From NCBI GenBank assembly GCA_043228905.1, contig JBHGNT010000003.1:20708001-20772000 (forward strand): a DNA stretch of 64,000 nt. Direction: 5' to 3'. A program made the translations under genes and the position numbers. The DNA is from Azolla caroliniana. Taxonomy: Eukaryota; Plantae; Polypodiophyta. Below the pieces are notes generated by a model. That model made no database searches. It was not told the origin of the DNA and saw only the letters and a list, made by a program, of their open reading frames with translations. Below, piece by piece: positions 19,001 through 41,365 of this stretch; position 1 is the first letter of the stretch; the number at the start of each line of letters is the position of its first letter.

Positions 19001-20830
19001 CAAGCTTTTGGAAACCCTAATCTTCTCATTGCCTCTTCTACAAAAGTTCCAATTCACTCTATCATAGGCCATTTCAAAATCTAACAATAAAATTACTAAG
19101 TCCTCTTTCTTGGCCATACCCGAGGAGGATAACTCCCAAAACAAAGCAAAAATATCATAGATACTCCTATCTTGCATGCAACCTGTTTGAGAAGTATGAA
19201 TAATATCAGGCAATAAAGGTTGCAAACGCAACACCAATACCTTAGCATAAAATTTGTAAATTGTATTGAGTAATGTGATTGGCCACCATGCCCTAATGTC
19301 CTCTGAAGCTCCATCACCTTTAGGGATAAAACAAATCAACCCCTCCTTCCATTCCTCTAGCATAGCTCCAAAATAAAATTTTATTTGAAAAGCACTAGTT
19401 AAATCATCAGCTATAATGTCCCAATATTGTAAGAAAACGTCCCTTATTAGTCCATCCTCTCCTGGGTAGACCTCGGAACCCAAAGATTTTAATGCTTGTT
19501 GAACCTTAGAAGAAGAAAAATGGCATAAAAGAGTTTGAACCATTTGATATGTAACACATGGCTTTGTTGCACCAAAAACTATACCCCTCATTGCCAATAC
19601 ATTTTGACTCACCTCATTAGCAGACAACAATTGTTCATAATACCGAGATGTTAACTCTCGCATTTCATCCGGATCCATTGAGAGAGTACCGTCATCCCTC
19701 TTTAATGCACCCATCTGAAACTTACGCGGTCTTGGAGTAACTACATCAAAAAATAATTTGGACATTTTGTCCCCTTTTTGAGACCATTTTGTTGCAAATG
19801 CAAAGTATTTAAAATAAGCAATTTTAGATTGCATAAGAAAAATTGCATCTCTTAACTTCCGTAAGTTGTTTTCAAGATAAATTGAGTTGATATCTCTTTC
19901 TTGCAAGCATTGAATCGAGGCCAACCCTCTTCTTGTATTTGCCAACCGAGAGACAAGAAAATGTTTCTTATCTTTAGCCTGACCTAAAAGTAGTTGCTTA
20001 AGTTGAAATAAAGCCACAAAAACCTTAGATAACTTATCAGGAGCAAAGACACTAGACCAAAGGGAAGCAACACTCTCCATAATGGAATCATCCTTTTGAA
20101 TCCATTTTGGAATCTTTACATGATCATGAAATACAACAAATCGCAATTTCAAAGTCAGTGTGATCTGAAAAGTTTGTACCCAGCACTATCCCTAGAGATC
20201 CACGTAAATCCCAAAATTATTGATTCGCGTGAAACTTGTCAATCCTAGAGATATTGGCATTTGCTACCCGCCTGTTCGACTGAGAAAATTGTAATGACTC
20301 TACCCTTCTTGCAAAATACTGCATAAACCATAAGTCCTACAAGCTAACTTTAAAGCATAAATTTTCCCACTCAGCCAATTCAACATCTGAGATTGTAATT
20401 GTGCCCCCACCCATACAATTAGAAGGGTCTTCAAGCATATTAAAGTCCCCAACAATGCACCAATGATCAATTACAGGGAGATCAGTCCACAATTAGCACC
20501 AAAATTGTGCCCTTCCCCTTGCTGAATTCGGTGCATAAACATTCAAGAAACCAACTTTTTTCTCTAATAGATTTAATACTATAAATTGGGCACAACCGCC
20601 CTGTAAAAAACCCTTGTCTACAATCAAAGAAGCCCATTTTTCAGAACATGCAATAGCAAGCCCCCCTTGCATTCTAGATGGCCCATAAGCCGAAATCCAA
20701 TCATAAAACCACCATCCCTTCTCTAGAGTCAACTTGATTGTGTGCATACCCAAAACAATTGCTTGGTGAACCAAAAAGTGTACAAGTCCAATCACTACGA
20801 CTAATGATTGTTATTGATAATGTCCAACCA
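16053..20830 (-). mobile_element. Decayed, 5'-truncated L1-clade LINE (ORF2: APE endonuclease, RT, zf-RVT)
   Basis: NVYAPN (20493-20795); WPITLLNTIYK and LLLDFEMAYDRVNW (18962-20152); RQGCMLAPFLF and EFADDT (18562-19029); CGFGCGC..ESIKHVLWSCP (16681-17607); short poly(A) at ~16053-16059. Several frameshifts/stops; no TSD found. Confidence 0.9.
17979..18224. mobile_element. 246-bp insertion in the LINE with 13-bp flanking direct repeat
   Basis: ATGTCTGGGTCTA at 17966-17978 and 18225-18237; removal restores GGLGLVDPDIQCKALLAK; degenerate terminal inverted repeats and an internal 11-bp hairpin. Confidence 0.8.
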
Positions 20831-21027: not shown

Positions 21028-21482
21028 TGTTACAGGCATGACCATATAATATCCCGTGGTGAGAATTTACCGTAATATTCTATACACGTGGATAAGTGCG
21101 AGGGTTAAACGAGAGTGTAAAGAAGGGGAGGATTACTTTTAATCCTCGGGATTGAGACAACCCATTAGCCCAAGTGAGAACTTGTCTGGGGGCCTTGGGT
21201 ATCACTATAAATAAGAGGCCTAGCTACCCTCATTTCATCATCTGGTTGACTACGTCGAGACTCTGTCTTGTGGTGGGTCAACTCTTGTAGCGAGTGCGCC
21301 AGCACCAGGTACGACTCGACGCCACGATGGTGGTATGAGACGCCGATCGAGGCTCGAGTCCGTCTCGATCCCTTCGCTCGGGGGTGGTCGGGTGGATCAA
21401 CACCCTTCTTTCTCTCTCTCCTTTCTATCTAGATCTATCTTTTATTCTTATTTTATGCTTACATTAGTTCATGTCTCTAATA
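21028..21482 (+). repeat. Chromovirus 5' LTR
   Basis: Starts TGTTAC, ends CTAATA; TATAAATA near 21207; matches 40911-41365. Confidence 0.95.
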
Positions 21483-21827
21483 GTTGGTATTAGAGCCTAT
21501 GTTCTAATGTTTCTTTTGTTTTCTTTTCTTTTGTTGATTGATGGTGATCGATCAATGTGCAGTCGGCCTTGATCCAGACAACAATCAACAAAGGAACTTC
21601 GGTAACTCTTTCCTTCTTCTTCTTTTCTATTTTTTCTTCTCCCATCTAATCATGTGTATAGTCTATATGTAATTGTTTTCATTAATTTAATGATGTTGTA
21701 GTGGTAATTAATTGGTTGTATAAAACGTTTACATATATGTATGAGGTCAATACCTCATTTGACATATATTGAATATGTGATTAGTGTCATATGCGCACAA
21801 GGTTAATACCTCAATTGCGTATTACGC

Positions 21828-22477
21828 TGTCGAGGTATTCCTCGCGGATGCGTGGAATGAGGCGGGACCTCGGGGGTCTTGTACCGAAGAGCAAGAGAGA
21901 AAGGAGAAGGGAAGGGACCCACTACGTGCGAGCGTAGATCCACAGGGACACGGCCCTTCGATACGAAGACGCGAGCGGGGAAACCAACACAGAGAGGCAC
22001 GAAGGTATGTATGTATATATATTAACAGAGACAAACAACAAGAAGCGCGAAGTCGGTTACAACCGAACAGGCCGGCGAACAGATGCCGATGCCTGTTCGC
22101 AAACGCTCAGAAAGAAAAGGGGTAGGTTGGAGGTGCTGCCGGAAGCACTCGGGCATTCCTCAGAGCAACGCGAGCCTCCCGAAAACCTGCACAGAAAGAA
22201 GCTACGGAGTCTTGGAAGAGAGCGAAGCCTTCGGCCGAAAACCCAACAACACTTCGTCCTCTCTATCGTCGATCCCCTTCCTCCTTCTCGTCTCCCTCCT
22301 TTTATAGGCAAGAAAGGAGCCGTTTCCCATTAACTTCCTGCCTACCGAATCTACCTACCTAGGATCTTCTATGTACCTAATTCTCTCTTACGTACAACAT
22401 AAGGCGTACATGCATGAAGAGCCGGTTCCTACGCTACGGTGCACCGATTCCGCTTGTGGACGGTTTTCTTCACGACA
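21828..22477 (-). repeat. 3' LTR of inner Gypsy
   Basis: TGTCG...TTCACGACA on +; adjacent minus-strand PPT GGTTAGGTGGGGGCGGA. Confidence 0.95.
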
Positions 22478-22550
22478 TCCGCCCCCACCTAACCGCGCAT
22501 CCACCGGCATGCACCAAATTGAGTTGGGACGGAGAAAACCGGTCCAACCT

Positions 22551-25500
22551 TCATTCCCCGCCCGTCGGTTCTTCCTCGGTTTCAGATCGTTCGTCGTCGC
22601 GGTCCAGGTTAACCGGATCCGGCTCGTCGTCGTGACGCTTCTTGAACGCTTTGATCCGCTTCCCAGCTACCGGTATCGCCATTCTCGTGCCGTCGAGTTC
22701 CGCCAGATGGTACGTCCCATTGTCGTTGGCGCTTTGGACCACGTAAGGCCCGAACCACCTTCTTGCAAACTTCCGTGTCGCTCGGTGCTGGTTGTCGAGG
22801 CTGCTGTCGTAGACTAGCACCCAGTCGCCTTCCTCGATCTTCTTTGGTCGGAGCCGGTGCGTCCGGTCGAACTGGGCTTTGTTCCTCGTCCTTGCCGCAC
22901 GAAGCTTTCCCGCAGCCTGCTCCACGTCTTCCGGTCTTCTCTCGAGCTGTCGTATGCGCGCCGCCAACAGTTCCTCCCGGCTCATCTCGTTTTTCCAGTC
23001 CATGGTTGCCCATGAGGAGATTGTACGTTCCATCGGCATGATCGGCTTCTACCCAAACATGAGCTTTGCCGGCATGAATCCGGTTACCGAACTGTGCGTG
23101 GTTCGGTCCGCCCACAACGCGTAAGGCAACAGCCGCGGCCAGTTCCCGACTTGACCTCCGCATGCCTGAACTAACGCCTTGACGATCGGTCCGTGTCTGC
23201 GCTCCACCTTCCCATTCGCCTCCGGATTGTACGCAGTGGTAAGCGAGAGCTTGACTCCTAGCCGGTCGAACAACTCCTCAGCCTCTTCGGCGTCCAACTC
23301 CTCGCGGTCAGCCACGATCTTCCCGACGCACCCGTACTGGCATATCACGTCCTCGATCAGGAACCGACATACGGCCGCGGTCGTTTTGTTCTGAAGGGCT
23401 CGGCCTTCCACCTGGTTCGTCAGATCTTCCCGAGCCAGGACCAGATACCGCATCTGTCCTACTCCCATCGGCATCGTCACCAGGTCTACCATCCATTTGA
23501 AGTGGATGGTCGGAGGGTACGTAGGGTGAAGCTCGTCCCAATGTCGGACTATGGAGTGCATCTGACCGCTCTCACAAGTTGTCACGAACCGATGCACGTC
23601 CCGGTACAGTCCCAGCCACCAGTACTTCCCCTTTATCTTCTCGAACGTGGCCCACTTCCCACGGTGTCCAACCCAAGGGCTGTCGTGGTAGGCCGTCAAC
23701 AGCTCCTCCTGTTCTTCCTTCATCGTCACCACCCGGAGCGGGACGTCGTTCCTCTTCTTCGGGTGCTTCCATAAGTATCCGTCCCGGAGAAAGAATCAGT
23801 ATGCTTTCTTCCGGATCCGGTTGGCCTCGTCCCTCGTCCATGACGCATCCGGCGTCATTGTCCTCAAAAACCCACCGATCTGTAGCCACTCGCCGTCGTA
23901 CTTGCTCTCGTCGAAGCTGTTAAGTGCCGGAGTGCTCGTCCCATCGGTTGTCACGTACGCCGCCTCGAAGAAGTCCACGCCGACTTCTTCGTCCTCCAAA
24001 ACCATGCCGCCCTCGTCATCAAACCTCGCCCTCGAAAGCATGTCGGCCATGGCGTTGTCCTTTCCGAAAATGTGTCGTATTTCCGGGTCCAGGGACTTGA
24101 TGTACGCTATCCACCTGAGCATCGCCAGGTCCGGTGTCGCGCATCCGGAAACCATGCCGAGAATGGGCAGGCAATCCGTCTCGATAATCACTTCTGTCCC
24201 GATCAGGTAGTCTTTGTCGACCTTTACTGCCGAAACGATACCCCAGAGTTCGCGTTTAACCTGGGCGTACCCTCGCTGTCGCTCACTGAGGACCTTCCCG
24301 CCGAATCCGATCGGGAACCGAATGCCGTCCTCGTCTTCTTGGTTGACGACCCATCCGATCCCGGTCGGACTCGTATCCACCGTTATGTAAACCGGGGTAC
24401 CCTTCTCGTAGACAGCCTTCCGGAGCGCCGGTGCTGCCGCAAGAGCTTCCTTCAGCTTCCGGACCGACTCCGTGTGCTCGTCTCGCCACCCGAATTTTCG
24501 CCCCTTCTTCAGCAACCCGTATAGCGGTTCCGCAACGTGGGTGTAATGCGGGATCCATATGTGGTAGAATGCGCATGCCCCTAGGAACCTCCGAACTTCC
24601 GTAACCGAGCTACAGTTGGTCTTCATCGCGGAGATGGCTTCTACCTTTGCCGGAGACGGCTTCCAGCCATATGGTCCACATAGGTGTCCGACCACCAGGA
24701 TTTCTGATTGCCCGAAGGCCGATTTCTCCCCGGAGAAGGTGAGCCTCGCATCCTCTAGCCTTTGTAGCACCTTCTCGCAGTCGTCGATGTGTGTTGCCAC
24801 GAATCGCCGGCATCCGTCCGGCCCGAGTGTCGCGTCCTTCTCTTCCACCGGGCACCCCTTGATCGGGATGTCATCTAGAAATGGCATGGTGATGTCCGGG
24901 ATGCAGTCCCTCAGTACCTTGTTCATTGCATTCACCATGTGGGCCACCGAGTTGGTCCCTCCTTGCGGCAGGGTACACATTCGCACTAGGCCGAGGGGAG
25001 TTCGCATCGTCGTAATGTCTCTACTCTCCACGGCTAGCTGGAACTGGTCGTACCCCGAGTACAGATCACCGACCGAGTAAATCGACCTTCCGGCAAAGGC
25101 CTCCGCGAACTCGTCTATGGTCGGTCCGATTCCTGCGTTCCGAATGGTCACTCTGTTGACCGGCTGCAGGTCTTGAATGAAGCGCAATGTTCCGTTTTTC
25201 TTTGGTACGGTAAACCATCAGTTCGAGTATGGGGCACTCGACGGTTCGAGAATGCCCATATCGACTTTTTGCCTCAATAGCTCCATCAACTTCGAGATGT
25301 GAGCTCTCGGTACTAGAATCGGCTTGAGATTCCACGACACATGCAGTACCGTGAATATCACCATCGGCTCCACGATTGTCGGGTCTACGCACATGATCTC
25401 TTCCGGTGAGAATGCGAAGGCTTTCCCGTGCCTTCCGAGCATTCTCCGAAACCGGTCTTCCTCCGCCGGCAGTAAGAACCCGCCCCCACCGATTTTGAGC

Positions 25501-26054
25501 TCCCAGAGCGTCTCGTCGGTGAAGGTGTGTCCTATGCAGACCGGATCTCGTAAGCTGGGGTCCGACGCAACCCCTCTGATTCGGGACTCGCTGCCCTCCG
25601 GTAAGTGTGCCGCGACTGGCCTTACCTTCCGGTCCACAGTCTTGTACTTCGTGCTAACTCAGGCCGTCCGACCCGACCGGAGCCCCTGACTGAAGTTCGC
25701 GATGACTTCGTACATCTCTTCGGAACATACCGGTATCGTCCGGTCTTCATTACGGTTTTCTCCGGCTACCTTCCTCAGCATCCCCAAGGTGTCGTCGAAG
25801 GAGACCGCCTCCACAGCTCCGCTGATTTCCTCGTCCGGGCCGAGAACTCCGCACGCTCGAAGTCGTACTTCCGCCCTTGCTTTTTCTCGGCCAACGATGC
25901 CGACTATCATACACCCTCCGTTGTCGGAGAAGCAAAAATTTCCACCTACCGTACAGGGTTTCTTCGGTTTCGGTTCTATCGTACAGTTGTGGGGTCTTTC
26001 CTGAGTGTTCGAACTGTCTCGGCCCCACGCCTTGGCAGCCCTCTCTAAAAATCC
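22551..26054 (-). pseudogene. pol (RT-RNaseH-integrase) of inner Gypsy, one frame with four premature stops
   Basis: ORFs 25659-25910, 25218-25637, 23796-25187, 23049-23732, 22551-23039 are all in one frame, separated by TGA/TAG explainable as C>T changes; integrase YNPEANGKVER and WFGPY. Confidence 0.92.
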
Positions 26055-27573
26055 TCCCGGTTCTCGCCACCGAGGGATTCGCGGTTTCGCTCGTGGTTCA
26101 GTCGCACCGTCAGAAATTGGACCGAATGGCGCCCGTCCTGGCTTTTGACCCTCGCGTAGGCCGAACCGTTGTCCAGCACCTTGGTCTCCATTCGCGCCGC
26201 CGTGATGTATGGTTCCCCTAATATGACCGGGTGCGAGGACGTCTCCTGTACGAAGAAGTGCTGGTCAATCTCGACGTCGCCGATCTTGACTCGCACGTTC
26301 GGGCAGGCCCCATGCAGTTCCTCGGTGGCGCGCGTCGCCGCCCGTATCTTCCACCCGTGCTTGGTGTTGATCGGCCACTTTCCCTTCTTATAGAAGTCCA
26401 TGGACATCAGGTTTATTTCCGAACCGTGGTCCACCAGTGCCACCACCGGTTCCTGAACATCTCCGATCTTTACCGGGGTCTCCGTGGTCGCTCGGGCCCA
26501 GTGCGGCCTTGAATAGTGGCTCTCCGCCCACTCATCTTCCAGCGCCATGTCGTCGATGTGCGTCGTCCGCACCTCCACCGGTCTTTCCGGTTCCGTCTCC
26601 GTCGACAGCCTCTTCTGTTTCACCAGGTCCACAATGGAGTCGTGGAACTCCTTCTGGGCGATCCCTAGCACCTCCCGCAACGACAGCTCCACTTTGCTGT
26701 CGAGGATCCGTTCTTCTAGGACCTTTCGTAGGTCTGTGGTCCTTTCTATTTTTGTCCCCAGTCGGTATCCACCCTTCCTGGGGTTATCTTGCGCGCTGGA
26801 CCCACCGGCTTCGTTCCGTCGTTGCCCGAATCGGGTCTCGTATCGCTGTGAGGGCTCGGCCGCTCCGGCTTTCCCCACTCGTTTGTCTTCTACCAGAGCC
26901 TCATAGTTCCGGCAGGCGGCTTCTACGAAGCCCGTCTTCTCCTTGACCGGGTCGCTCCACCCGGTTATTTCCCGGACCCGTCTCTCAGCGCGGTTCACTT
27001 CATCTTTCCTCAGTCGTGCGCCGGCGAGGCCTTCCAGCATTGCCGACCAGGATCCGGCTTTGCTCTCCTTTCGGGCCTCGCTGCCCCCGACCCGAATACC
27101 AGCCGATGCCGAGTAGTGGACGGTCTCCACGTGTTGGGCCGCTGCCTCTTCCATCAGTCTCTTCATACCTCCTTGCTCGTCGTTTCGGTTTAGGGCCCTT
27201 CTGGTGTCACTGGCGTGCACCCGGCCTTCCCACAGGTACACCACCCGGTTCCTCAATGCCTCTTCGAAATTGCCGTAGTCCTTTCGAATGTGGCCGACCT
27301 CGTCGCACCACATGCACCTGTTACCTGCTGCCGGCCGTCGGTCACGAGCCGGTTCGCCGCCTTCCCTTCGAGTCTGGGCGATCTGGAGATCCTTTATCGC
27401 CCGCGTCAACTCCTCCAGCGCTGGTCCTCCGGACGAGTCATTGACCATGCCGGTCGAAGCCGAACCGGTTTCGAGCCACTCCCGGGTCTCTACCCTTCGC
27501 CCTTGCGGTGCCGGTTCAAGCCTCCTTGCAGTGACAGAGCCCGCACCGGCCGCTCCATTGTCAGCCCATTCTC

Positions 27574-30500
27574 TGTTGGGATTACGGTCCCTCCGGATGG
27601 GATGGTCAGATGTCCGGGAATTGGGAATGAAGACCCGAATGAGTAGTACCCGGTATCAGAGCCGGATGATGAAGACCCGGTTTCGGATCCGGATGATGAA
27701 GACCCCGACTACGGAGCCGGATGACGAATGTACCCGGAGAGAGATCCGGATGCGGGGACATATTTGTGAATATGTTTGCCAAGGGCCCTCTAGGCTATAC
27801 TTGTAAATAGCCCGAAAGTCATATGTGTATAAATATGACTTAGGGCAAACAGTTTTGTTGTTGTTGCTCATTTTTCTGTTTTCCACTTAGAGGGAGCGAA
27901 GTGAGAGCAGCCGAGAGAGAGAGTGAGAGAGAGAGAGAAAGGAAGAGGTCGACGCCTCTGTGTAATACCGCCGCCTGTGGCGAGGACAGCGAGCTCAAGG
28001 TCGTCGCCTTGCAGCTCGCCATTGTACATTCACTGCGTATAGTGATAGTTGGAGTCTTGCACTCCCGTGGTTTTTCCCGTCTAGGGTTTTCCACGCTAAA
28101 CCCTGTGCATTCGAGTCTCTCTCTGTGTTTTCGATTTACTACTGCATTGATTCGCGTTTCCTCGGTTGTGGCCGAGAGGTGAAAGTTTTTTTGAAAGCGT
28201 AAATCTCTAACAATCTGGTATCAGAGCGACTGCAGTGCAGAAAATGGAAGGCGGCAGCAGCGGGCAGCCGGGGATGATAGTGCTGAATGCGCAGAACTAC
28301 GCCGACTGGAAGATAAAGATGGAGGATTTGCTCATTGTTCGGGACCTGTATGAACCGATCGACAGGTCGGAAATACCCAAGGGGGTACTTGAGACGGAAT
28401 GGAGGCTTCTGAACCGGAAAGCCGTTGCAACCATTCGGCAATACGTCGACGTGAGCGTTCTACAACATGTGGCGAACGACACCAACGCATATGAGATGTG
28501 GCAGAAGCTGTCGGGCCTCTACGAGAGGAAGAATGCGTTGAACAGGACCTCCCTGATGAGGAAGATAGTGAACCTCAAGTACCGGGACGGCGAGAGTATG
28601 GTGGAACACGTAAGCACGTTCATGGGATTCGTGAACCAGCTTGCGGCGATCAAGTTCCCGTTGGAGGATGCAATGCAAGCCATCATCCTGATGTGTACAT
28701 TGCCGGCAAGTTGGGAGAACTTGGTGGTGACTCTCAGCACCTCCTGCACCGAAGATAACTTGTCCCTACAAACGGTAAAGACAAGCATTTTGAACGAAGA
28801 AGCGCGTCGGAGAGATAAAGAACCGGCCTCCGATCCGAAGATGCTGCTTGCCGAATCGGATCGGGGAAGACAACGGAACCGGAGTCCGCAAAGACGGGAG
28901 AAGTCGGGGACCCGGTCGCAGTCAAGAGGAAGGCCCACATGCTTCCACTGTGGGAAGCCGGGGCACTTCCGAAAGAATTGTCGGCATTACCGAAAAGACA
29001 ACGGAGCCGACGACACCGATTCGAAGAAGTCTTCGGAACGGAACGGAGCTTACCGGGGAGCCACGGACCGGAATGGTTCGGATCGGCGAGGGCAGGACCG
29101 GAAAGGAACGACGGCACTCGCGGCAAGTGAAGAGGAGATCATGCTCATCACCGAAGAAGGTGAACTAAACATTGCCGGCGATGAGACTACCTGGGTGGTT
29201 GATTCCGGAGCGTCGTTCCACCTGACCCCGGAAAGAAGATACTTCTCATCCTACACAGCCGGTGAGCATGGCTGTGTTCGGATGGGAAATGAAGGTATGT
29301 GCCGGATTGCCGGCATAGGAGACGTGTGGTTGACAACCTCGACCGGATGCAAAATGTTGCTGAAGGATGTCTGACACGTTCCGGAGGTTCGATTGAACCT
29401 GATTTCGGCCGGGAGGCTAGATGATGAAGGCTACACAGGTAGCATCCGGAACTGCGTAATGAAGTTCAGCAAGGGGAGCCTGATAGTGGCTCGGGCCCGG
29501 AAAGTCAACACACTGTACCTTATGAATGCCTGGTTGTGTCCGGAGGAGTTGAACGTGGCAGCCGACACTGCCGGTGAGCTGTGGCACAAGAGACTGTGCC
29601 ACATGAGTGAGAAGGGGATGAAGAGGCTTGCAGAAGACAACCTTATTCCAGTGAAGCATGTGCACCTGGAGAAGTGCACCGATTGCCTGGCCGGTAAGCA
29701 GAACCGAACCTCCTTCCACTCAAGGCCACCGACGAGACGTAGCGCACCATTGGAGTTGGTGCACACTGACGTGTGTCAAGTAGAAACGAAGTCACGTGGC
29801 GGAGCCCAGTACTTCGTGACATTCATTGATGACCACAGCCGGAAGCTGTGGACGGCACCACTGAAGACAAAGGACCAAGTGTTGTACGTCTTCAAAGAAC
29901 TCCACGCGAGAGTGGAAAGGGAATCCGGCAAGAAGTTGAAAGCGATACGAGCGGATAACGGAGGGGAATACCGGGGGCAGTTCGAGGAGTACTGTCGCTC
30001 GAAGGGAATCCGGCTCGAGTTTACTGTGCCGAAGACGCCGGAACTAAACGGACTGGCCGAGAGGATGAACCGGACCATAATGGAGAGGGTCCGGAGTATG
30101 CTGGCGCATGCGAAATTACCCAAGGGGTTTTGGGCTGAGGCAATGTCGACGGCGACATACGTGATAAACAGATCACCCTCAGTACCTTTGGACGGAGACA
30201 CGCCGCAGAGACTGTGGACCGGTAGGGAAGTATCCTACCGGCATCTGAAGGTGTTCGGGTGTCTCGCATATGTGCATGTGGCAAAGGACCGGAGAGGAAA
30301 GCTAGATCCAAAGACCCGGCCATGCATATTCCTCGGTTACGGCGATGACGAGTTCGGCTACCGAGTATGGGACCCGGTCGACAAAAAGATATTCCGGAGT
30401 CGTGATATCATCTTCATGGAGGACAAGACACTCGCCGACTGGGAGTCGGAGAAGAAGATAAAGAGCTCCAAGTCGACCGGTGAGGATCAACTCTACGAGG

Positions 30501-32966
30501 AGCAGTCCCGACCGGCAAGGGACCGGTTAGCACTCGAGGATCCGGCCGAAGACGGTGAAGAAACAGAACCGGCCGAGGAAGATGAAACTGATACCGGAAC
30601 CGGCCCCGATCCCGAAATGGATTCGGATGAAGAGGAAACGGAGGAGCCGGTTACCGAAGCTCCGGAACAGAGATATCCTCTAAGAGAGAGAAGGCCCCCC
30701 CGGAGATTTCCGGAACCAGAGCACGTGCTGCTAACCGACGAGGGGGAGCCGGAGAGTTTTGAAGAAGCAAAGCTTGACACCCATAGCCACAGGTGGTTAA
30801 GTGCCATGCAGGAGGAGATGGATTCCCTGCATGAGAACCACACATATGAACTTGTGGAGTTGCCGAAAGGAAAGCGGGCACTTCGAAACAAGTGGGTGTT
30901 CAAGCTGAAACCGGGAGATGCCGGAAACCCCCCGAGATACAAAGCCAGGATCGTGGTGAAGGGGTTCCAGCAGAAGAAGGGCGTTGACTTCGACGAGATA
31001 TTTGCCCCGGTAGTGAAGATGACCTCCATCCGGACGGTGCTGAGCATAGCGGCAAGCATGGACCTCGAGGTAGAACAGATGGACGTGAAGACGACATTCC
31101 TTCACGGTGACCTCGAAGAAGAGATCTACATGCAGCAACCGGAAGGATTCGAGAAGAAAGGGAAGGAGCACCTGGTATGCCGGTTGAAGAAGAGCCTTTA
31201 CGGATTGAAGCAGGCTCCCCGGCAATGGTACCGGAAGTTCGACTCTTTCATGACCAACGAAGGGTACCACAAAACGCAGTCCGATCACTGCGTGTTTGTG
31301 AAGAAGTTCGAAGGAGGAGACTTTCTAATACTCCTCCTGTACATGGACGACATGTTGATCGTCGGACGGGACCAGGTCAAGATACGGATGCTGAAGAAAG
31401 CGCTTCACCGAACCTTCTCAATGAAGGACCTGGGTCCGGCGAGGCAAATACTAGGGATGCACATCATCCGGGACCAGAAGAAGAAGCAGTTGTGGCTGTC
31501 ACAGGAGAAGTACGTGACAAAGGTGCTTCACCGGTTCAACATGTCGGAAGCAAGACCGGTCGGGTCAACCCTCCCGGCAAACTGCAAACTGTCCAGCAAG
31601 CAAAGCCCCAAGACAAAGGCTGAGAAGGAGGACATGATGAAAGTACCATATGCCTCTGCCATCGGAAGCTTGATGTACGCAATGGTGTGTACAAGACCGG
31701 ACATAGGATATGCAGTCGGAGTGGTGAGCCGGTACATGAGCAATCCCGGCAAAGAGCACTGGAACGCGGCCAAGTGGATACTCCGATACTTGAAGGGCAC
31801 GGCAAACGTGTGCCTCCGATTCGGCTCCGGTAAGCCCGAACTCGACGACTTTACCGATTCGGATATGTCGGCTGACGCAGATACCAGCCGGTCCACATCA
31901 GGGTATGTGATGACGTATGCAGGGGGAGCTGTTTCGTGGCAGTCGAGGCTGCAGAAGACGGTTGCGTTGTCAACCACGGAGGCGGAGTACATGGCGGCTG
32001 TTGAAGCCGGCAAGGAAATAATATGGATGAAGGACTTCATTAGAGAGCTCGGTATCCGGCAGGAGGAGTACCGACTCTACTGCGACAGTCAGAGTGCCAT
32101 CCACCTTGCGAAGAATGCGGCCTATCACTCCCGGACGAAGCACATCCAGAGAAGATATCACTGGATCCGGGAAAGGATAGAAGACCAGGAGTTCGTGCTG
32201 ACGAAGATCCACACGGACGAGAACGGGTCAGATATGCTGACCAAAGTGCTCACACCCGACAAGCTGGAAGCGTGCCGGAAGAGGGTCGGACTGGAAAGAC
32301 ATCCCATGCCGAAGTGAAGGGGGAGCTTGTTGGGATTACGGTCCCTCCGGATGGGATGGTCAGATGTCCGGGAATCGGGAATGAAGACCCGAATGAGGAG
32401 TACCCGGTATCAGAGCCGGATGATGAAGACCCGGTTTCGGATCCGGATGATGAAGACCCCGGCTACGGAGCCGGATGACGAATGTACCCGGAGAGAGATC
32501 CGGATGCGGGGACATATTTGTGAATATGTTTGCCAAGGGCCCTCTAGGCTATACTTGTAAATAGCCCGAAAGTCATATGTGTATAAATATGACTTAGGGC
32601 AAACAGTTTTGTTGTTGTTGCTCATTTTTCTGTTTTCCACTTAGAGGGAGCGAAGTGAGAGCAGCCGAGAGAGAGAGTGAGAGAGAGAGAGAAAGGAAGA
32701 GGTCGACGCCTCTGTGTAATACCGCCGCCTGTGGCGAGGACAGCGAGCTCAAGGTCGTCGCCTTGCAGCTCGCCATTGTACATTCACTGCGTATAGTGAT
32801 AGTTGGAGTCTTGCACTCCCGTGGTTTTTCCCGTCTAGGGTTTTCCACGCTAAACCCTGTGCATTCGAGTCTCTCTCTGTGTTTTCGATTTACTACTGCA
32901 TTGATTCGCGTTTCCTCGGTTGTGGCCGAGAGGTGAAAGTTTTTTTGAAAGCGTAAATCTCTAACA
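27574..32966 (+). mobile_element. Young Ty1/Copia retrotransposon (Tto1/Tnt1-like) nested in inner Gypsy gag
   Basis: 639-bp LTRs 27574-28212 and 32328-32966 (3 mismatches seen), TG...CA ends; TSD TTCTC at 27569-27573 and 32967-32971; PBS TGGTATCAGAGC 28216-28227; PPT GAAGGGGGAG before 3' LTR. Confidence 0.97.
28244..32317 (+). pseudogene. Copia gag-pol with a single in-frame nonsense codon
   Basis: CFHCGKPGHFRKNC, WVVDSGAS, WHKRLCH..CTDC, integrase core, RT LKKSLYGLKQAPRQW / YMDDML, RNase H. TGA at 29372-29374 replaces the conserved Arg of KDVRHVP; both ORFs share a frame. Confidence 0.95.
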
Positions 32967-33591
32967 TTCTCGCCGTTTGTCGAAACGGCCACAGACTCTC
33001 TTAACCGCAACCCAGTCGGTCGTCAGTCCGTCTTCGGTTTCCAGCAAGGAGCCGACTTGATCCCGGTCCCGCTCGTCCACCGACTTGACGAACAGTAGGA
33101 CCCGGCTCGTATCCAGAACGGTTCGGTCAAGCGCCGAAAGGCGCGCAAAGCGTTCCTCAAACTCCCGGAGGAGTGCCGACGCGTTTCTTCCCTTGCCGGG
33201 GGACTCCACCCATCCCATGAAGTCCCGTTTCGAAAGCCGGAGCGCGTCGTCCAGCCCGTATTTTTCTAGGAGTCGGCCTTCGAACTCCTCCCAGGTACGG
33301 CTCTCCTCCCGTACCTCGAGCACCTCCACATGGATGCTCGGCATCGCCACTCGAGGGAACCCGACAAGACGCCTCTCTTCCGGAATGTCCCGCATCAGCA
33401 TTTCTGCCCCGTAGGACGCCAAATACTTCGTAGCATCCTTTCCGCTGAACCGGCCGATCGTACCGACGACCACCTCAATGGCTCTGTCGAGGGCGCCGGT
33501 GCCCTCGCGTGCGCTCAATATCTGATCCACGGCCGAAGCCATGGCCTCCGCCAGATCCGACCCCTTCATCTTCTGCTCTTCTGCCGCCTCC

Positions 33592-33609
33592 TTCACGTCG
33601 GGTTCACCA
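33592..33609 (-). other. Primer-binding site complementary to tRNA-Trp
   Basis: + strand TTCACGTCGGGTTCACCA equals the 3' 18 nt of plant cytosolic tRNA-Trp(CCA) as I recall it; 3 nt from the 5' LTR. Confidence 0.88.
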
Positions 33610-33612
33610 AGA

Positions 33613-34262
33613 TGTCGAGGTACTCCTCGCGGATGTGTGGAATGAGGCGGGACCTCGGGGGTCTTGTACCGAAGAGCAAGAGAGAAAGGAGAAGGGAAGG
33701 GACCCACTACGTGCGAGCGTAGATCCACAGGGACACGGCCCTTCGATACGAAGACGCGAGCGGGGAAACCAACACAGAGAGGCACGAAGGTATGTATGTA
33801 TATATATTAACAGAGACAAACAACAAGAAGCGCGAAGTCGGTTACAACCGAACAGGCCGGCGAACAGATGCCGATGCCTGTTCGCAAACGCTCAGAAAGA
33901 AAAGGGGTAGGTTGGAGGTGCTGCCGGAAGCACTCGGGCATTCCTCAGAGCAGCGCGAGCCTCCCGAAAACCTGCACAGAAAGAAGCTACGGAGTCTTGG
34001 AAGAGAGCGAAGCCTTCGGCCGAAAACCCGACAACACTTCGTCCTCTCTATCGTTGATCCCCTTCCTCCTTCTCGTCTCCCTCCTTTTATAGGCAAGAAA
34101 GGAGTCGTTTCCCATTAACTTCCTGCCTACCGAATCTACCTACGTAGGATCTTCTATGTACCTAATTCTCTCTTACGTACAACATAAGGCGTACGTGCAT
34201 GAAGAGCCGGTTCCTACGCTCCGGTGCACCGATTCCGCTTGTGGACGGTTTTCTTCACGACA
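33613..34262 (-). repeat. 5' LTR of inner Gypsy
   Basis: Matches 21828-22477. Confidence 0.95.
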
Positions 34263-35587
34263 ACGCTCACATACATATGTTACGTATGCGTATGAGGTGA
34301 ATACCTCGATTTCGTTGTAAATGATGTGTTTGGTCTCGTATGCGTAAGAGGTCAATACCTCAATTGCATATTACGATGAACCCTTATTTTTGGATGTTTC
34401 GTTTGCGTTCAGTTATATACCTCGATTACGTATCTCGATTATATCATTTATGGCTATTTGATGTAACGATTTGTTTAATATACGCATATGTGGTCACGTG
34501 TATACGTATTTGATCGTATATATGTGATAATATACATATGTGTATATAAGTTATTACATGATTTTAATATGGAATGTTTTCCTTTTCGGGGAAAGGATCT
34601 TGGTGGCCGCCCTCACATTTTTGTGAGAATGGCATTTTCACCATCCCTTTTGCAACAAGTTTTTGTTGACATCCCCGTTGGTCACTTTGATATTTCGTTA
34701 CGTAATGAAACAATCATAGCCACAATAGTGTTGAGTACGTAGGGCTTGACCCACTTCATGTGAGGTCGCTCCTATGACACACATATCCAACATCCCTCCC
34801 TCATTACATGGATACGATGCCACCATGAGATCATAAGAGGCATTCGCAATGACGTAACCATGTGATGGGCCACGTGGGCCTACTACAAAAAGAGGGCTCA
34901 TTTGGCTTGACCATTAGGTTGCACTTTGGCGTATGCCATCGTAATTACGAGACTTGAGGTTAGGTAACGTACCAACATATTTTGTAGTAAACGAGGGGGA
35001 AATAAGGATTCTTGACATATATGTTTCTTTTAAAAAAACATATATGGGCAAATGCCTTGCATATCTCTTATACGCATGAAACATTAACCATTCAAGAAGA
35101 GCAACCTACTTGGTTGGCTCCATTGTTTAATGCATTTGTTCTCGAGGTCTCGAGTTCAAATATAATCAAGACCATACAACATCATTGATACATTTGACTA
35201 TAACACATGTTTAGACTTGAGGTCTAAGTGCACTTCGGGTTCTCGTAATAAGACTTAAAGAGCCGAAACCACATATGTGGGCACAGAAACATAATTTATT
35301 GTTAACATTTTTTTCGTGTATAAACCACTCATGACGCGAACATACATGGTTGAGCCTTGGGAAGCTATCATGAAAAAATCAATATAGAGATCAGGGAGAG
35401 ACATTAATTTGTCACCCCCATGGTTTTTAAAACACCTTTGTGTTACCAGAGTAACTTGATCTTGAACCTCATCTCATATGTCTAGAGGGGTATTGATGTG
35501 AGATCATGATAACGATTAATGTTTGCCCATGATATGTTTACATCATGACATGATGTTATGACTATTTGTCTGACCTTATCCTATTTC

Positions 35588-38500
35588 TTTGCCAGAAATA
35601 ATCATTCAATGACTCAAAATAACGACCTGATGCCATCTGCTCAAGTGGAAGGAACTCAAGGAAATCCTCATGGACAAATGTCCATTGAGATGTATTTTTC
35701 ACAAATAACCCAATACCTTAGTTTCACCGCTCAACAGATGACCGAACTTCGACAATCTCAAAGTGCTCTCGAGGCACATGTCATTAGTTTACAACGTGAG
35801 ACTAATAGACCTAATGAGCGACAGGGTGAACCATCATTTGTCGTTAAGCCATTTACCAAAGAAAGAAAGGAAAGAACCGAATAAGCAATCTGCACGTGGC
35901 TGGGCCGATGGGAGTCTCATTTTGAGCTCTATCCCACGCCAGATAGTACGAAGATTGCATATGTCGGCCGAGAACTAGGGGGTAAGGCCGCCGCCTGGTG
36001 GCGTTGTCGGGGTAGTTGTGGTTCGTGCGGCGAAATCGCAGGGACTAAGGTTAAAGGGAGTTGACGAAACTTTTATAAGGCTTTGCGCACAAATGTTAGG
36101 AAGATTAAGGATAAGAAGAATAAAGTTTAAAGTAATGTGTGAGAGAGAGATGAGCATAGATACCCAAATGGATGTAGCTCAGTTGGTAAGGTTGCCCAAT
36201 GGAGACCAAGTGGTCATGGGTTCAACCCCTACATTCCACAGTGGCATCTAGTGAAATTGAGATGAAGTATATAATAGAGAGGTGAGGAAATTGGGTTTCG
36301 AACCCAAGACACAGTGTTTGTAGTGTTATCGACTTACCATTAGGGTAAGCTAATTACAATAAAAAAAGAGAGATGAGCATAGATAAAAGATAGAGAAAAT
36401 TTATGATTTAAGAAGAAAGAGTATAAGATATGAACATGATTATATTAAGAAAACAAGTTTTTACCAACATTACAATGCTTTATGACAAGGTGAACCCTTT
36501 CTCTACCGACTCTTGATTTGAACCCTCGACTCGAACTTGGAAACATGAGCCTCTTCACCAACAAGCTAACTTGTTTATTTCATTAATTATGTTCTAACTT
36601 TCTCTTGATTGATTGATTACCCTATTTTCCCTTGATTCATCCCTTAATTCCTTGCCTCTCTTTATAGATTCTGTCATGCATATGATGATATGGGGGTGCA
36701 TGTAATGCATGTGATGCATGATCGCCATTTGGCGTACATGCTTTACATGTGATGCATGATAGCCATCATGCTCATCTAATAGAAATGTATGAAGATACAC
36801 ATGTCATAAGTATGGTGATAAAAACATAACTATAGAAAATAACTTATCCTAATGGTATATGCTTCGTCCTTGGTGTGTGAGGTTACGGGTTCAAGTCTCT
36901 CAAATGTTACTTAATACAATATTCAAGTTTCTTTTTATATCGTGAAGCAAATCCTTCACGACAGCGTGGGCTCCGAACTTTGGGGAAATTGCCCGATACA
37001 TGGACAAATTTTGTCACAGTTTTTAAGGGCCAATTTTTGCAACCTCCCTCTCGAATCGAGGCAGCTCAAGTTTTAATGAACCTCTCTAGCAGGAAATTTT
37101 CTTCGCTAGAAGACTATGTCCACCATGCTAGAACCCAAATCCCAAAATCGGGTCTAGAAGGGGACAATTGGTTAATAGCTTGTTTTGTTAATGGCATCCC
37201 CAATTTGGACTATCACTAGATAGTGCACGATAAGGATCCAAAATCCTTCGAAGAGGCCGTTGAAATAGTTCTTCACTATCAACGCACTTCGAAGAAGGAC
37301 CACAACAAACCCAACGAAGCATCTGGGGACTAAGCAGTCGCAATTCGCTGGGAAATGCAAGACACCCAACGAATTCATGGATCACGATTGTAAGCGACAA
37401 CATCCTTTTTGCGTATTCTGCAAAAAGAAGGGTCATACAAAAGAGCAATGTCGAAAGCTCCAACGGAAAGAGCACGACAACAAAGCTAAAGTTACAGACC
37501 ATAAAGGTCAGAATCCTAATGTCCTTCAGGTCTATATACATCATTTAAGTAATTGTCAATGTTCTTTCCCTCACTATGTATTGGGTCCCAATGATTTACT
37601 ACGTGCAAACAGGTATATCAATGGATCTCTCGTACAATTTTTATTTGATTCGGGAAGCTCACACCCAGCTCACACAACTTTGTGAAAGATTGTTTGGTTC
37701 AGATATGGGGAATCCAACCCACCGTAAGTGATCACACCTATACGGTGCACTTGGTTGATGGAAGAGTACAATACATCAACGGGGCGATTCATTCATTAGG
37801 AATTTCTATTGATACTTATATAGAGGAAGTAGACTTCCATGTAATGAATCTTTGTACCACTGATGTAATACTGGGTTATCCCTAGTTTTATAATAAAAAC
37901 TCTTCTTTATCTATTGATTGGGTTCATCATTCAATAACTTTTGTATTGAATGATTGTACTCATTTTATTCAATGTGTAAAAAAAACAATCCCTCTCGATT
38001 GTTTCCTCTCCATCAATATCCGAGTTATTGTGTACTTGATCCAGACATTCACGTTTACAATATCGATAATGTCTCGGTTCAGTTAACATATTTTGAACAA
38101 CAACAACTTGATGAAATCTTAAATGATTTTCATGATGTTTTTCTGAGTGAACTACCATATGGGTTACCTCCTAAACGTAATATAGACCATCGCATAGATA
38201 TTGTACCTGGCGTTGCACCTATAAGTATACCTCATCGCGTAAGTTGATCTGAAGAGGATGAGGTATTTAAGCAACTCAAGGACTATTTACGAATGGGTTA
38301 TATACGTTATAGTAAATCTCCATGGGGTGCACCAATTCTCTTGGTTACAAAGAAAGAGGGCACATGGCGTATGTGTATTAATTACCGACGCTTGAATAAA
38401 GTGACGATCAAGAATTCGTATCCATTGCCCCGGGCTGACGATCTAATTGACCGTCTCCAGGGAGCTCAGTATTTTACGAAACTTGATCTCCGTACTGGCT

Positions 38501-40910
38501 ACCATCAAATACGTATAAGTGAGGGCGATGTTCCTAAAACGGCATTTCGTATGCGCTATGGCCATTATGAGTTTTTGGTTATGCCTTTTGGTTTGACCAA
38601 TGCTCCGGTTACATTTCAACAAGAAATGAATGACATTTTCCGAGAACAACTTGGAAAATTTGTCGTTATTTTCTTGGATGATATTTTAGTTTATAGTCGT
38701 ACATTACAAGAACATGTTAAACATGTTCGCTTTGTTTTACAAACATTGCGTGACAAACAATTTTATGCGAAGATTTCAAAATGTGAGTTCTTCAAGAAAT
38801 CAATTACTTATCTTGGACATCTCATAATCGAACGAGGAGTTGAAATTGATTCTTCTCGCATCGAGAAAATTAAGCTTTGGCCTACACTTCGGAATATTCG
38901 AGAAGTTCGATCATTCCTTGGGTTTGTCGGGTTTTTGCGAAAATCCCTTCGTAATTACTCCCAATTGACAACGTCGTTTACTGATCTTCTAAAAGGTCAA
39001 ATGCGTAAGTCTACAAAACCTATTGTCTGGAATGCTACACTAGACCTCGCCTTTAAGGAACTCAAGGACCTGGTGTGCAGGGCTCCTTCACTTCTTTTAC
39101 CTGATCCTTCAAAACCTTTTGAGGTTGAAACTGATGCAAGCAATTATGCTATAGGTGTTGTCTTATATCAAGATGGTAAACCAATAACATTCGAGAGTAA
39201 GAAACTTGATTCTGCTCAATGTCGGTATACCGTTCAAGAAAAGGAATTATTTCCAGTTATACATGCGCTCAAAACATGGTGCCATTATCTTTATGGAAAT
39301 CGCTTTGTGGTAACTACGGACCGCGAGTCCTTGAAATATTTTTGTGACCAACAAGACCTGAAAGGTCGTAAGGCACGATGGGTTGGTCTCATCCAGGACT
39401 TTGATTTTTCCATACGATATCGTAAAGGTTCCATGAACACTGTCGTTGATGCACTAAGTCGCATCCGTGAAGTTAACATGCTTAGCTTCACTGAAATAAC
39501 ATTAGATCTTTATGATCACCTTCGAGGAAAGTATCCTGATGACAGTTATTTTGCAAAATATTGGGCAAGAGTTGAGTCTGGAACAGACACCATCACATCC
39601 TCGAAGGAATACTTCCACATTGCTAACGGTCTACTCTACCGTAATGGGAATGTTTGTGTTCCAGAGTTACGCGAGGTCAAAAAGAGGATTCTTTTTTAAT
39701 GCCATGATGCACCCTCAGTAGGGCACCCTAGAATACATCGTACACTCGTTCTCATCTCCACTCAATTCTATTGGCCTAAGATGCGTCCTGACATACATAG
39801 TTATGTGACTAAATGTCACCAATGTCAGGTTAACAAAGCCGAGCGACTTAAATCTGCAAGACTTTTACATCCCTTGGACATTCCCAATAATAAGTGGGAA
39901 AGTATATCCATGGATTTTATTGTTAGCCTTCCTCGCACCCAAAAAGGCCACGATGCCATATGGGTTGTGGTTGATAGACTAACTAAAATGGCTAGATTTA
40001 TTGCTACTAAAACCACGGTAACAGCTCCTGAATTGGCTTACCAATTCGTTGACGAGTTATTTTGTTTTATGGGTTATCGATGGATATCGTGAGTGATCGA
40101 GATCCAAAGTTTACTAGTGACTTCTGGACGCAAGTCTTTAAGAAGTTAGAAACTACATTGAGCATGAGCTCCACGGATCATCCTCAATCCGATGGACAAA
40201 TAGAACGAGTAAATCAAATTATTGAGGACATGCTTCGAGCATACGTTGGTGCAAAACCAACAAAATGGGAACGTTATCTCCCAATTTTGGAGTTTGCTTA
40301 TAATAGCTCCAAGCATACGTCGACGGGATATAGTCCTTTTATGTTGATGTATGGTTTTCAGCCACGAGCCCTGATTGATGTTAATATACATCATGATGAG
40401 TTGCGAAGTACGCAAAACTTTCTTCGGGATATGCAAGATATGTTGCATATTGCACGAGATAATATAAAAACAACTCAAGATAGAGCACGTTTTTATGCCG
40501 ATCATCATAGGCAACCTCGTGTATTCAACCCTGGATAGAAGGTATTTTTACGTGTACCTCACAATTCTAAGACATTATCTAAGGGTAAGTGCGCTAAGTT
40601 AGCCCCACGGTTTTGTGGACCTTTTACAGTCCTCAAACGCATTGGGTCATCAGCATATCGTCTCGCTCTTCCTGATGGTGTTGAAATTCATCCAGTTTTT
40701 CATGTGAGTCATCTAAAAGAACTTCTAGGTTCTGGTGACAATACAATTATAACTGAAACTCTGGTTACTTCTGAAGAATTATCTTCTAAACCACATGTAC
40801 CAGAAAGAATTCTTGATGTTAAAACAAAAAAATTGCGTACTAAAGAAATCCAAGAATTTAAAATAAAATGGATGGATAAATTAATAAAAGATGCCACATG
40901 GGAACGCGTA
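35588..40910 (+). pseudogene. Chromovirus gag-pol (gag, PR, RT, RNaseH, IN, chromodomain), disrupted
   Basis: Gag GKAAAWWR|GLRTLGKLPDTW (split by 36005-36963); CVFCKKKGHTKEQC; LFDSGSSH; [29 protein letters not shown]; IN WESISMDFI, HPQSDGQ; chromodomain PERILD..FKIKW..DATWE. Several stops/frameshifts. Confidence 0.92.
36005..36963 (-). mobile_element. Solo-LTR-like insertion (959 bp) in chromovirus gag
   Basis: Termini TGTCG...TTCACGACA as in inner Gypsy LTRs; 4-bp TSD GCGT at 36001-36004 and 36964-36967; removal restores gag frame. Orientation inferred from termini. Confidence 0.85.
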
Positions 40911-41365
40911 TGTTACTGGCATGACCATATAATATCCTATGGTGAGAATTTACCGTAGTATTCTATACACGTGGATAAGTGTGAGGGTTAAACGAGAGTG
41001 TAAAGACGGGGAGGATTACTTTTAATCCTCAGGATTGAGACAACCCATTAGCCCAAGTGTGAACTTGCCTGAGGGCCTTGGGTATCGCTATAAATAAGAG
41101 GCCTAACTACCCTCATTTCATCATCTGGTTGACTACGTCGAGACTCTATCTTGTGGTGGGTCAACTCTTGTAGCGAGTGCGCCAACACCATGTATGACTC
41201 GACGCCACGACGGTGGTATGGGACGCCGATCGAGGCTCGAGTCCGTCTCGATCCCTTTGCTCGGGGGTGGTCGGGTGGATCGACACCCTTCTTTCTCTCT
41301 CTCCTTTCTATCTAGATCTATCTTTTATCCTTATTTTATGCTTACATTAGTTCATGTCTCTAATA
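40911..41365 (+). repeat. Chromovirus 3' LTR
   Basis: Matches 21028-21482; followed by TSD GACCT. Confidence 0.95.

What the first reader, a model, noticed from the sequence alone, without database searches (positions are those of the whole stretch)
21824..36967. Two related insertions share termini, 4-bp TSDs and a CpG-centred target (ACGC/GCGT)
Seen: the inner Gypsy (TSD ACGC) and the solo LTR (TSD GCGT) have reverse-complement TSDs and share TGTCG...CTTCACGACA ends, although their LTR bodies differ (650 vs 959 bp). Both landed in the same chromovirus. Known: most plant LTR elements make 5-bp TSDs without strong sequence preference; 4-bp TSDs with target preference occur in insect errantiviruses. 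Inference: an integrase family preferring RCGY, possibly methylated CpG in older TEs. The sample is only two sites.
Basis: partly seen in the sequence, partly recalled or inferred. Interest (0 to 1): 0.72.

Follow-up and report, generated by a model that had tools for sequence, protein, structure and literature searches.

The report
Moss jumping genes that target CG
Two related retrotransposon insertions here both landed on a CG dinucleotide and duplicated four bases, as do most of some 1,500 copies of one of the two families in this genome; this matches a habit already published for the moss Phygy lineage, to which they likely belong, so it is real but largely known.

Summary
Observation confirmed: the inner Gypsy (21828-34262, TSD ACGC) and the solo LTR (36005-36963, TSD GCGT) have 4-bp, CG-centred TSDs and share 5 + 10 terminal bases. 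It holds family-wide: 1357 of 1520 outer junctions of family A have CG at TSD positions 2-3 (background 3.4%). Of 73 paired insertions, 46 have an exact 4-bp TSD (all NCGN) and none has an exact 5-bp TSD. It is also already published: Neumann et al. 2019 list the moss Phygy lineage as '4 bp (100%) (NCGN)' with a tRNA-Trp PBS. The elements meet these features (Trp PBS, no aRH, no chromodomain); tree placement against the REXdb references could not be run. Insertion sites are no more often in the TE families tested, or in the host chromovirus family, than random CpGs are, so methyl-CpG targeting has no support, though it is untested directly. The solo LTR belongs to a 3.6-4 kb gag-protease-only family derived from a third, autonomous family. 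Its 959 bp include a 204-bp SINE-like insert.

The parts
21028..41365 (+). Outer chromovirus (Ty3/gypsy with chromodomain), host of both insertions; LTRs 21028-21482 and 40911-41365 (21 differences in 455), 5-bp TSD GACCT; decayed
21824..21827 (+). TSD copy ACGC of family-A element
21828..22477 (-). Family A (Phygy-like) 3' LTR, 650 bp, preceded in element sense by a purine-rich tract at about 22478-22495
22551..26264 (-). Family A pol (RT, RNase H, integrase), broken by stops and frameshifts; no aRH or chromodomain match in full-length relatives
26045..27573 (-). Family A gag-protease, C-terminal part (DUF4100)
27574..32966 (+). Ty1/copia element nested in the family-A gag; LTRs differ at 3 of 639; 5-bp TSD TTCTC (27569-27573, 32967-32971)
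32967..33591 (-). Family A gag, N-terminal part
33592..33609 (-). Primer binding site, 18 nt complementary to the 3' end (with CCA) of the genome's tRNA-Trp(CCA)
33613..34262 (-). Family A 5' LTR (9 differences from the 3' LTR in 650)
34263..34266 (+). TSD copy ACGC of family-A element
36001..36004 (+). TSD copy GCGT of the solo LTR, inside the host's gag
36005..36963 (-). Solo LTR of family B (3.6-4 kb gag-protease-only elements derived from autonomous family C)
36163..36366 (+). 204-bp SINE-like dispersed repeat inside the solo LTR, flanked by a 19-bp direct repeat (36144-36162, 36367-36385)
36964..36967 (+). TSD copy GCGT of the solo LTR

Best explanation
Both insertions come from Ty3/gypsy retrotransposons, likely of the moss Phygy lineage, that insert with a 4-base duplication centred on CG (consensus VCGB), a choice likely made by the integrase reading the DNA sequence itself. 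The inner element is a decayed copy of autonomous family A. The solo LTR is the likely recombination remnant of family B, a pol-less gag-protease element derived from autonomous family C, whose integrase it likely borrows. Inferred mechanism: a 4-bp-stagger intasome bends the target sharply at a central pyrimidine-purine step, as in foamy virus, and base contacts would narrow the choice to CG and disfavour T/A at the edges. Because young TEs here are CpG-rich and gene regions CpG-poor, this rule alone would about double the share of insertions landing in TEs, without any methylation reader.
For: Shown: family A 1357 of 1520 outer junctions NCG; family B 115 of 170 non-PPT ends NCG, a lower bound since some of the rest are other internal junctions; paired sites 46 of 73 exact 4-bp TSD, all CG, 20 more differing only by transitions, 0 exact 5-bp; 38 of 65 after dropping CG-selected and window sites; family C 13 of 14 exact 4-bp, 14 of 14 CG, 0 5-bp. 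VCGB 96% against 43% background, RCGY 54% against 16%. Same Trp PBS in A, B and C. No aRH or chromodomain match in three full pol ORFs. B gag-pro 90% identical to C, with DNA jumping from C 3125 to C 6530; A and C pol 60% identical. 11 of 11 paired B elements are 3.56-4.0 kb with no pol-sized ORF. Integrase's best solved relatives are Ty3 and PFV IN. Random CpG flanks hit the TE library in 28% against 14.5% for random positions; real sites 23%. Literature: Phygy '4 bp (100%) (NCGN)', Trp PBS 81% (PMC6317226 Additional file 5); a central YR step scales with short TSD (PMC4422553).
Against: Phygy is defined phylogenetically and the REXdb reference sequences could not be read; the P. patens relatives found (34-60% identity) are unlabelled. 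A (6.6-7.3 kb without nested inserts) and C (7.3-7.6 kb) are shorter than the P. patens Phygy range 7656-9968 bp. 7 of 73 paired sites have non-matching flanks. Flanks are slightly more CpG-dense than random CpG flanks (0.057 vs 0.051, p=0.005), so a regional or chromatin component is not excluded. No biochemistry or methylome; base contacts are inferred.
Confidence: 0.85

Rival explanations
1. The integration complex recognises methylated CpG (or methylated chromatin), steering insertions into silenced TEs; the CG in the TSD is the footprint of that.
For: CG centre is nearly obligatory rather than any YR step (46 of 46 exact TSDs); flanks are GC- and CpG-rich and slightly more CpG-dense than random CpG flanks (p=0.005); Phygy-in-Tcn1 nesting is reported in P. 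patens (PMC6911290 passage); a methyl-CpG-binding Copia exists in arthropods (PMC6673714, abstract start in search listing).
Against: Sites are not enriched in the tested TE families relative to random CpGs (44 of 195 vs 568 of 2000); no MBD, SRA or chromodomain match in pol or gag-pro at E<=1; errantiviruses reach CGCG specificity in Drosophila (PMC5408687 passage), a fly with little CpG methylation (recalled). The TE library was small (10 sequences), so this proxy is weak.
Confidence: 0.1
2. The elements are TatI-like (also 4-bp TSD and Trp PBS) or an unnamed sister clade of Phygy with the same habit.
For: TatI: 4 bp (100%), Trp PBS 75%. A, B and C form their own clade apart from the P. patens proteins in an unrooted gag-pro tree. 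Size is below the Phygy range.
Against: TatI carries aRH in 100% and is about 9 kb; no separate aRH here (only a weak RVT_3 hit, E=0.27, over the native RNase H). NCGN is reported only for Phygy.
Confidence: 0.08
3. Two-site coincidence: the CG-centred 4-bp TSDs are chance or mis-called ends.
For: Only two sites in the window.
Against: Genome-wide counts; same-window controls (Copia, chromovirus) give 5-bp non-CG TSDs.
Confidence: 0.01

Closest known systems
Phygy (non-chromovirus Ty3/gypsy of Physcomitrium patens; Neumann et al. 2019, PMC6317226)
   Same: 4-bp TSD, NCGN preference, tRNA-Trp PBS, no aRH, no chromodomain, coding region filling the internal part; related gag-pro proteins in P. 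patens (34-60% identity).
   Different: Shorter (about 7-7.6 kb vs 7.7-10 kb); here the motif is resolved to VCGB from about 1,350 sites; a pol-less derivative family exists. Tree membership not tested against references.
TR-GAG non-autonomous LTR elements (as described in PMC8704663)
   Same: Two LTRs, PBS, PPT and one long gag-containing ORF; close to an autonomous partner family.
   Different: Family B keeps gag plus protease and derives from a Gypsy (Phygy-like) partner; the Arabidopsis example in the passages read is a Copia derivative.
Drosophila errantiviruses, ZAM subgroup (PMC5408687)
   Same: Palindromic, sequence-specific target with a CG-rich core (CGCG).
   Different: Different host kingdom; edges here are degenerate (VCGB); no env-like third ORF in A or C.
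TatI (REXdb)
   Same: 4-bp TSD, Trp PBS.
   Different: TatI has aRH and about 9 kb; no NCGN preference reported.

Membership tests
Phygy | Clusters with Phygy in RT/RH/INT phylogeny (the formal definition) | not testable with these tools
   REXdb FASTA and element table too large to read; only unlabelled P. patens gag-pro relatives available.
Phygy | 4-bp TSD | tested here: met
   46 of 73 exact 4-bp, 0 exact 5-bp; C 13 of 14.
Phygy | NCGN target preference | tested here: met
   1357 of 1520; 46 of 46 exact TSDs.
Phygy | tRNA-Trp PBS | tested here: met
   18-nt match; 6 of 6 loci checked are tRNA-Trp(CCA).
Phygy | No chromodomain, no aRH, no extra ORF; coding region fills the internal part | tested here: met
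   Pfam E<=1 on three full pol ORFs; ORF maps.
Phygy | Size 7656-9968 bp (descriptive; the paper calls size of little value for classification) | tested here: inconclusive
   A mostly 6.6-7.3 kb, C 7.3-7.6 kb: at or just below the P. patens range; a different species range is expected.
TatI | Extra archaeal-type RNase H (aRH) | tested here: not met
   No separate RVT_3/RNase_H hit; the PROT-RT spacer has no Pfam or PDB match.
TR-GAG-like non-autonomous element (family B) | LTRs + PBS + PPT + single gag ORF, no RT/INT | tested here: met
   11 of 11 paired B elements lack pol; ORF up to 726 aa is gag plus protease. The retained protease departs from gag-only TR-GAG.
Chromovirus (outer host) | C-terminal chromodomain on integrase | tested here: met
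   Chromo PF00385 E=1.2e-5. Clade (Tcn1 vs Galadriel) not tested.

The most novel reading that the evidence does not exclude
The Phygy-type integrase is a methyl-CpG-reading integrase: it needs 5mCG at the centre of its 4-bp target and so aims at silenced DNA by reading the DNA mark directly, with no chromodomain or MBD.
Probability: 0.1. Interest if true: 0.75.

Novelty: new member of a known kind. Interest (0 to 1): 0.2.

Why it matters
The main claim is published for P. patens, so it matters little as a discovery. What this genome adds is a sample about seven times the 186 elements of the original table, a sharper motif (VCGB), evidence that the rule is shared by integrases only about 60% identical, and a pol-less partner family. 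Neumann et al. name Phygy as the one plant LTR lineage with a sequence-specific target. This makes it a tractable plant model for how an integrase reads sequence, and for whether a CG rule works as a gene-avoidance strategy in a genome whose gene regions are CpG-poor. If methylation were required, it would be a new targeting mechanism.

Tried and rejected
Reverse-complement TSDs as a signal: rejected, p=0.156. RCGY as the consensus: rejected in favour of VCGB. Host-chromovirus targeting: 6 of 195 vs 58 of 2000. Solo LTR as a variant of family A: rejected, no blastn similarity beyond the termini and gag only 33-37% identical. TatI: rejected for lack of aRH. tRNA genes inside the solo LTR (A/B-box-like words seen by eye): ARAGORN found 0 and Rfam found nothing real. 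Two of seven rows in the alignment were given on the wrong strand and were ignored. Search for labelled Phygy sequences in supplements failed. Earlier scan findings were not available. Literature searches: 'NCGN'+'retrotransposon' gave 2 papers, only PMC6317226 relevant; 'Phygy' gave 18, of which I read passages of 3. No methylation-dependence study of Phygy integration showed in the 15 of 76 papers listed, and no moss gag-only family in the 20 of 697 listed; subscription journals are not covered.
Full report
Anatomy. Self-alignment shows three LTR pairs. The outer element (21028-41365) is a decayed Gypsy with RT, RNase H, integrase and a chromodomain and a 5-bp TSD GACCT. Inside its 5' region lies a minus-strand Gypsy ('family A', 21828-34262, TSD ACGC) with a DUF4100 gag-protease and RT-RH-INT. 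This is itself interrupted by a Copia (27574-32966, 5-bp TSD TTCTC). A solo LTR ('family B', 36005-36963, TSD GCGT) sits in the host's gag. LTR differences of 21/455, 9/650 and 3/639 fit the nesting order. The window also holds dynein heavy-chain exons, and the named relatives of the element proteins come from Physcomitrium, Riccia and Adiantum; a moss or other seed-free plant host is inferred.

Family-wide test. A 20-base family-A LTR end occurs 2701 times in G000; 1181 of these are internal junctions with the polypurine tract. Of the remaining 1520, 1357 (89%) are followed by NCG, against 3.4% CpG per base in 40 fixed-position 10-kb stretches. Among the 1357, 731 are RCGY (54%; background 16% of NCGN) and 1297 are VCGB (96%; background 43%). 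For family B the end occurs 221 times, 51 internal, and 115 of the other 170 are NCG; some of the remainder are other internal junction types. For TSD length I paired both ends of 73 insertions (39 A, 34 B), drawn from best BLAST hits and first-listed pattern hits; ends that could not be paired were left out. Of these, 46 have an exact 4-bp TSD, all with central CG; 20 differ only by transitions (14 of 22 changes at the CG); 7 do not match; none has an exact 3-, 5- or 6-bp repeat. Dropping six CG-selected loci and the two window sites leaves 38 exact of 65, all CG. The chance that two such TSDs are reverse complements is 0.156.

What the solo LTR is. Its best matches belong to 3.56-4.0-kb elements; 11 of 11 paired ones have no pol-sized ORF and carry at most one long gag-protease ORF. 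A protein search found a third family, C. Of 16 C copies fetched, 14 were resolved: about 7.3-7.6 kb (one 8.0 kb), LTRs 98-99.9% identical where aligned, 13 of 14 with an exact 4-bp TSD and 14 of 14 with CG. B gag-pro is 90% identical to C and B's DNA skips C's pol; B and C share LTR ends, PBS spacer and PPT. A and C are more distant (gag-pro 41%, pol 60%, integrase 62%). So the two insertions in the window were likely made by two different integrases of one lineage, B borrowing C's (inferred). The 959-bp length is inflated by a 204-bp SINE-like repeat with a 19-bp direct repeat; it has at least 40 near-full-length matches in the genome, and the 11 other copies examined lie in or next to GA-rich tracts.

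Comparison with what is known. Neumann et al. [quoted passage not shown] Here the PBS is an 18-nt match to tRNA-Trp(CCA), and three full pol ORFs show no aRH or chromodomain. Jedlicka et al. (PMC6911290, passages) also report 4-bp TSDs as most common in Phygy, and Phygy-in-Tcn1 as the commonest repeated nested pair in P. patens. Phygy is also reported in a liverwort (PMC12885004, passages). Passages of PMC7466625 and PMC6839031 added nothing on this target motif. The formal, phylogenetic definition could not be tested; P. patens gag-pro relatives are 34-60% identical but unlabelled, and the unrooted tree of 21 rows keeps A, B and C as their own clade. The elements are a little shorter than the P. 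patens range.

Mechanism. Shown: 4-bp stagger, central CG, T avoided at position 1 and A at position 4, and a weak flank bias (C rare two bases outside the TSD on the left). Inferred: the integrase, whose nearest solved relatives are Ty3 and PFV IN, bends the target at a central YR step as 4-bp-TSD retroviral integrases do (PMC4422553, passages). Other YR steps are absent from the exact TSDs, so base-specific contacts likely add the CG requirement. ZAM-group errantiviruses provide a CGCG precedent (PMC5408687, passages); TR-GAG elements provide the precedent for B (PMC8704663, passages).

Methylation and TE targeting. Flanks are CpG-rich (o/e 0.96 vs 0.41 in the non-nested window), but so is any DNA around a CpG: 0.057 CpG per base at real sites, 0.051 at random CpGs (p=0.005) and 0.033 at random positions. 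Against a ten-sequence TE library, 44 of 195 real flanks hit, 568 of 2000 random-CpG flanks and 291 of 2000 random positions; for the host chromovirus family 6 of 195 vs 58 of 2000. The CG rule therefore explains the nesting without a methylation reader. Limits: small library, left and right flanks of one insertion are not independent, the background includes TEs younger than some insertions, and there is no methylome. Methyl-CpG dependence stays possible but unsupported.

Verdict. Real, strong and family-wide, but a known property of a known lineage in what is likely another moss genome; the additions are a refined motif, a pol-less partner family and a negative proxy test of methyl targeting. 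Interest 0.2.

Noticed in passing
window 36163-36366; L198-L208: 204-bp SINE-like repeat (Pol III A/B-box-like words by eye, A-rich end, long direct repeats), at least 40 near-full-length matches at 92-100% (this copy included); copies examined lie in or next to GA-rich tracts, some in tandem. No ARAGORN or Rfam match.
   Followed up: partly
window 36005-36963 and family C LTRs (L183:825-1798): B and C LTRs contain several degenerate B-box-like words on both strands and vary in length (about 700-1000 bp); possible internal Pol III-type modules, not supported by Rfam.
   Followed up: partly
L003 (G000:C2:27633188-27633834): A family-A solo LTR inserted about 9 bp from the position homologous to the window's solo-B site, in another copy of the same chromovirus gag; single case, may be chance.
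   Followed up: partly
L004/L005, L009/L023, L057/L058: Pairs on a small contig and a chromosome-scale contig share a flank, suggesting unpurged haplotigs or duplications, so genome-wide counts may be slightly inflated.
   Followed up: no
G000:C8:17796786-17823370 and C16:4989496-5105657: Clusters of tRNA-Trp 3'-end matches, about 1.2-kb spacing on C8 (17 matches) and 20 matches on C16: likely tandem tRNA gene arrays.
   Followed up: no
G000:C18:6389933-6396698; C20:9726710-9739700: Tandem triplets of B-like and C-like gag-pro matches at fixed spacing (2981 and 6185 bp): tandem LTR-element structures.
   Followed up: no
window 51320-62569 (-); 45946-47001 (+); 16681-20185 (-): Dynein heavy-chain exons, a FYVE-domain ORF and a decayed LINE-like RT flank the nest.
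   Followed up: no
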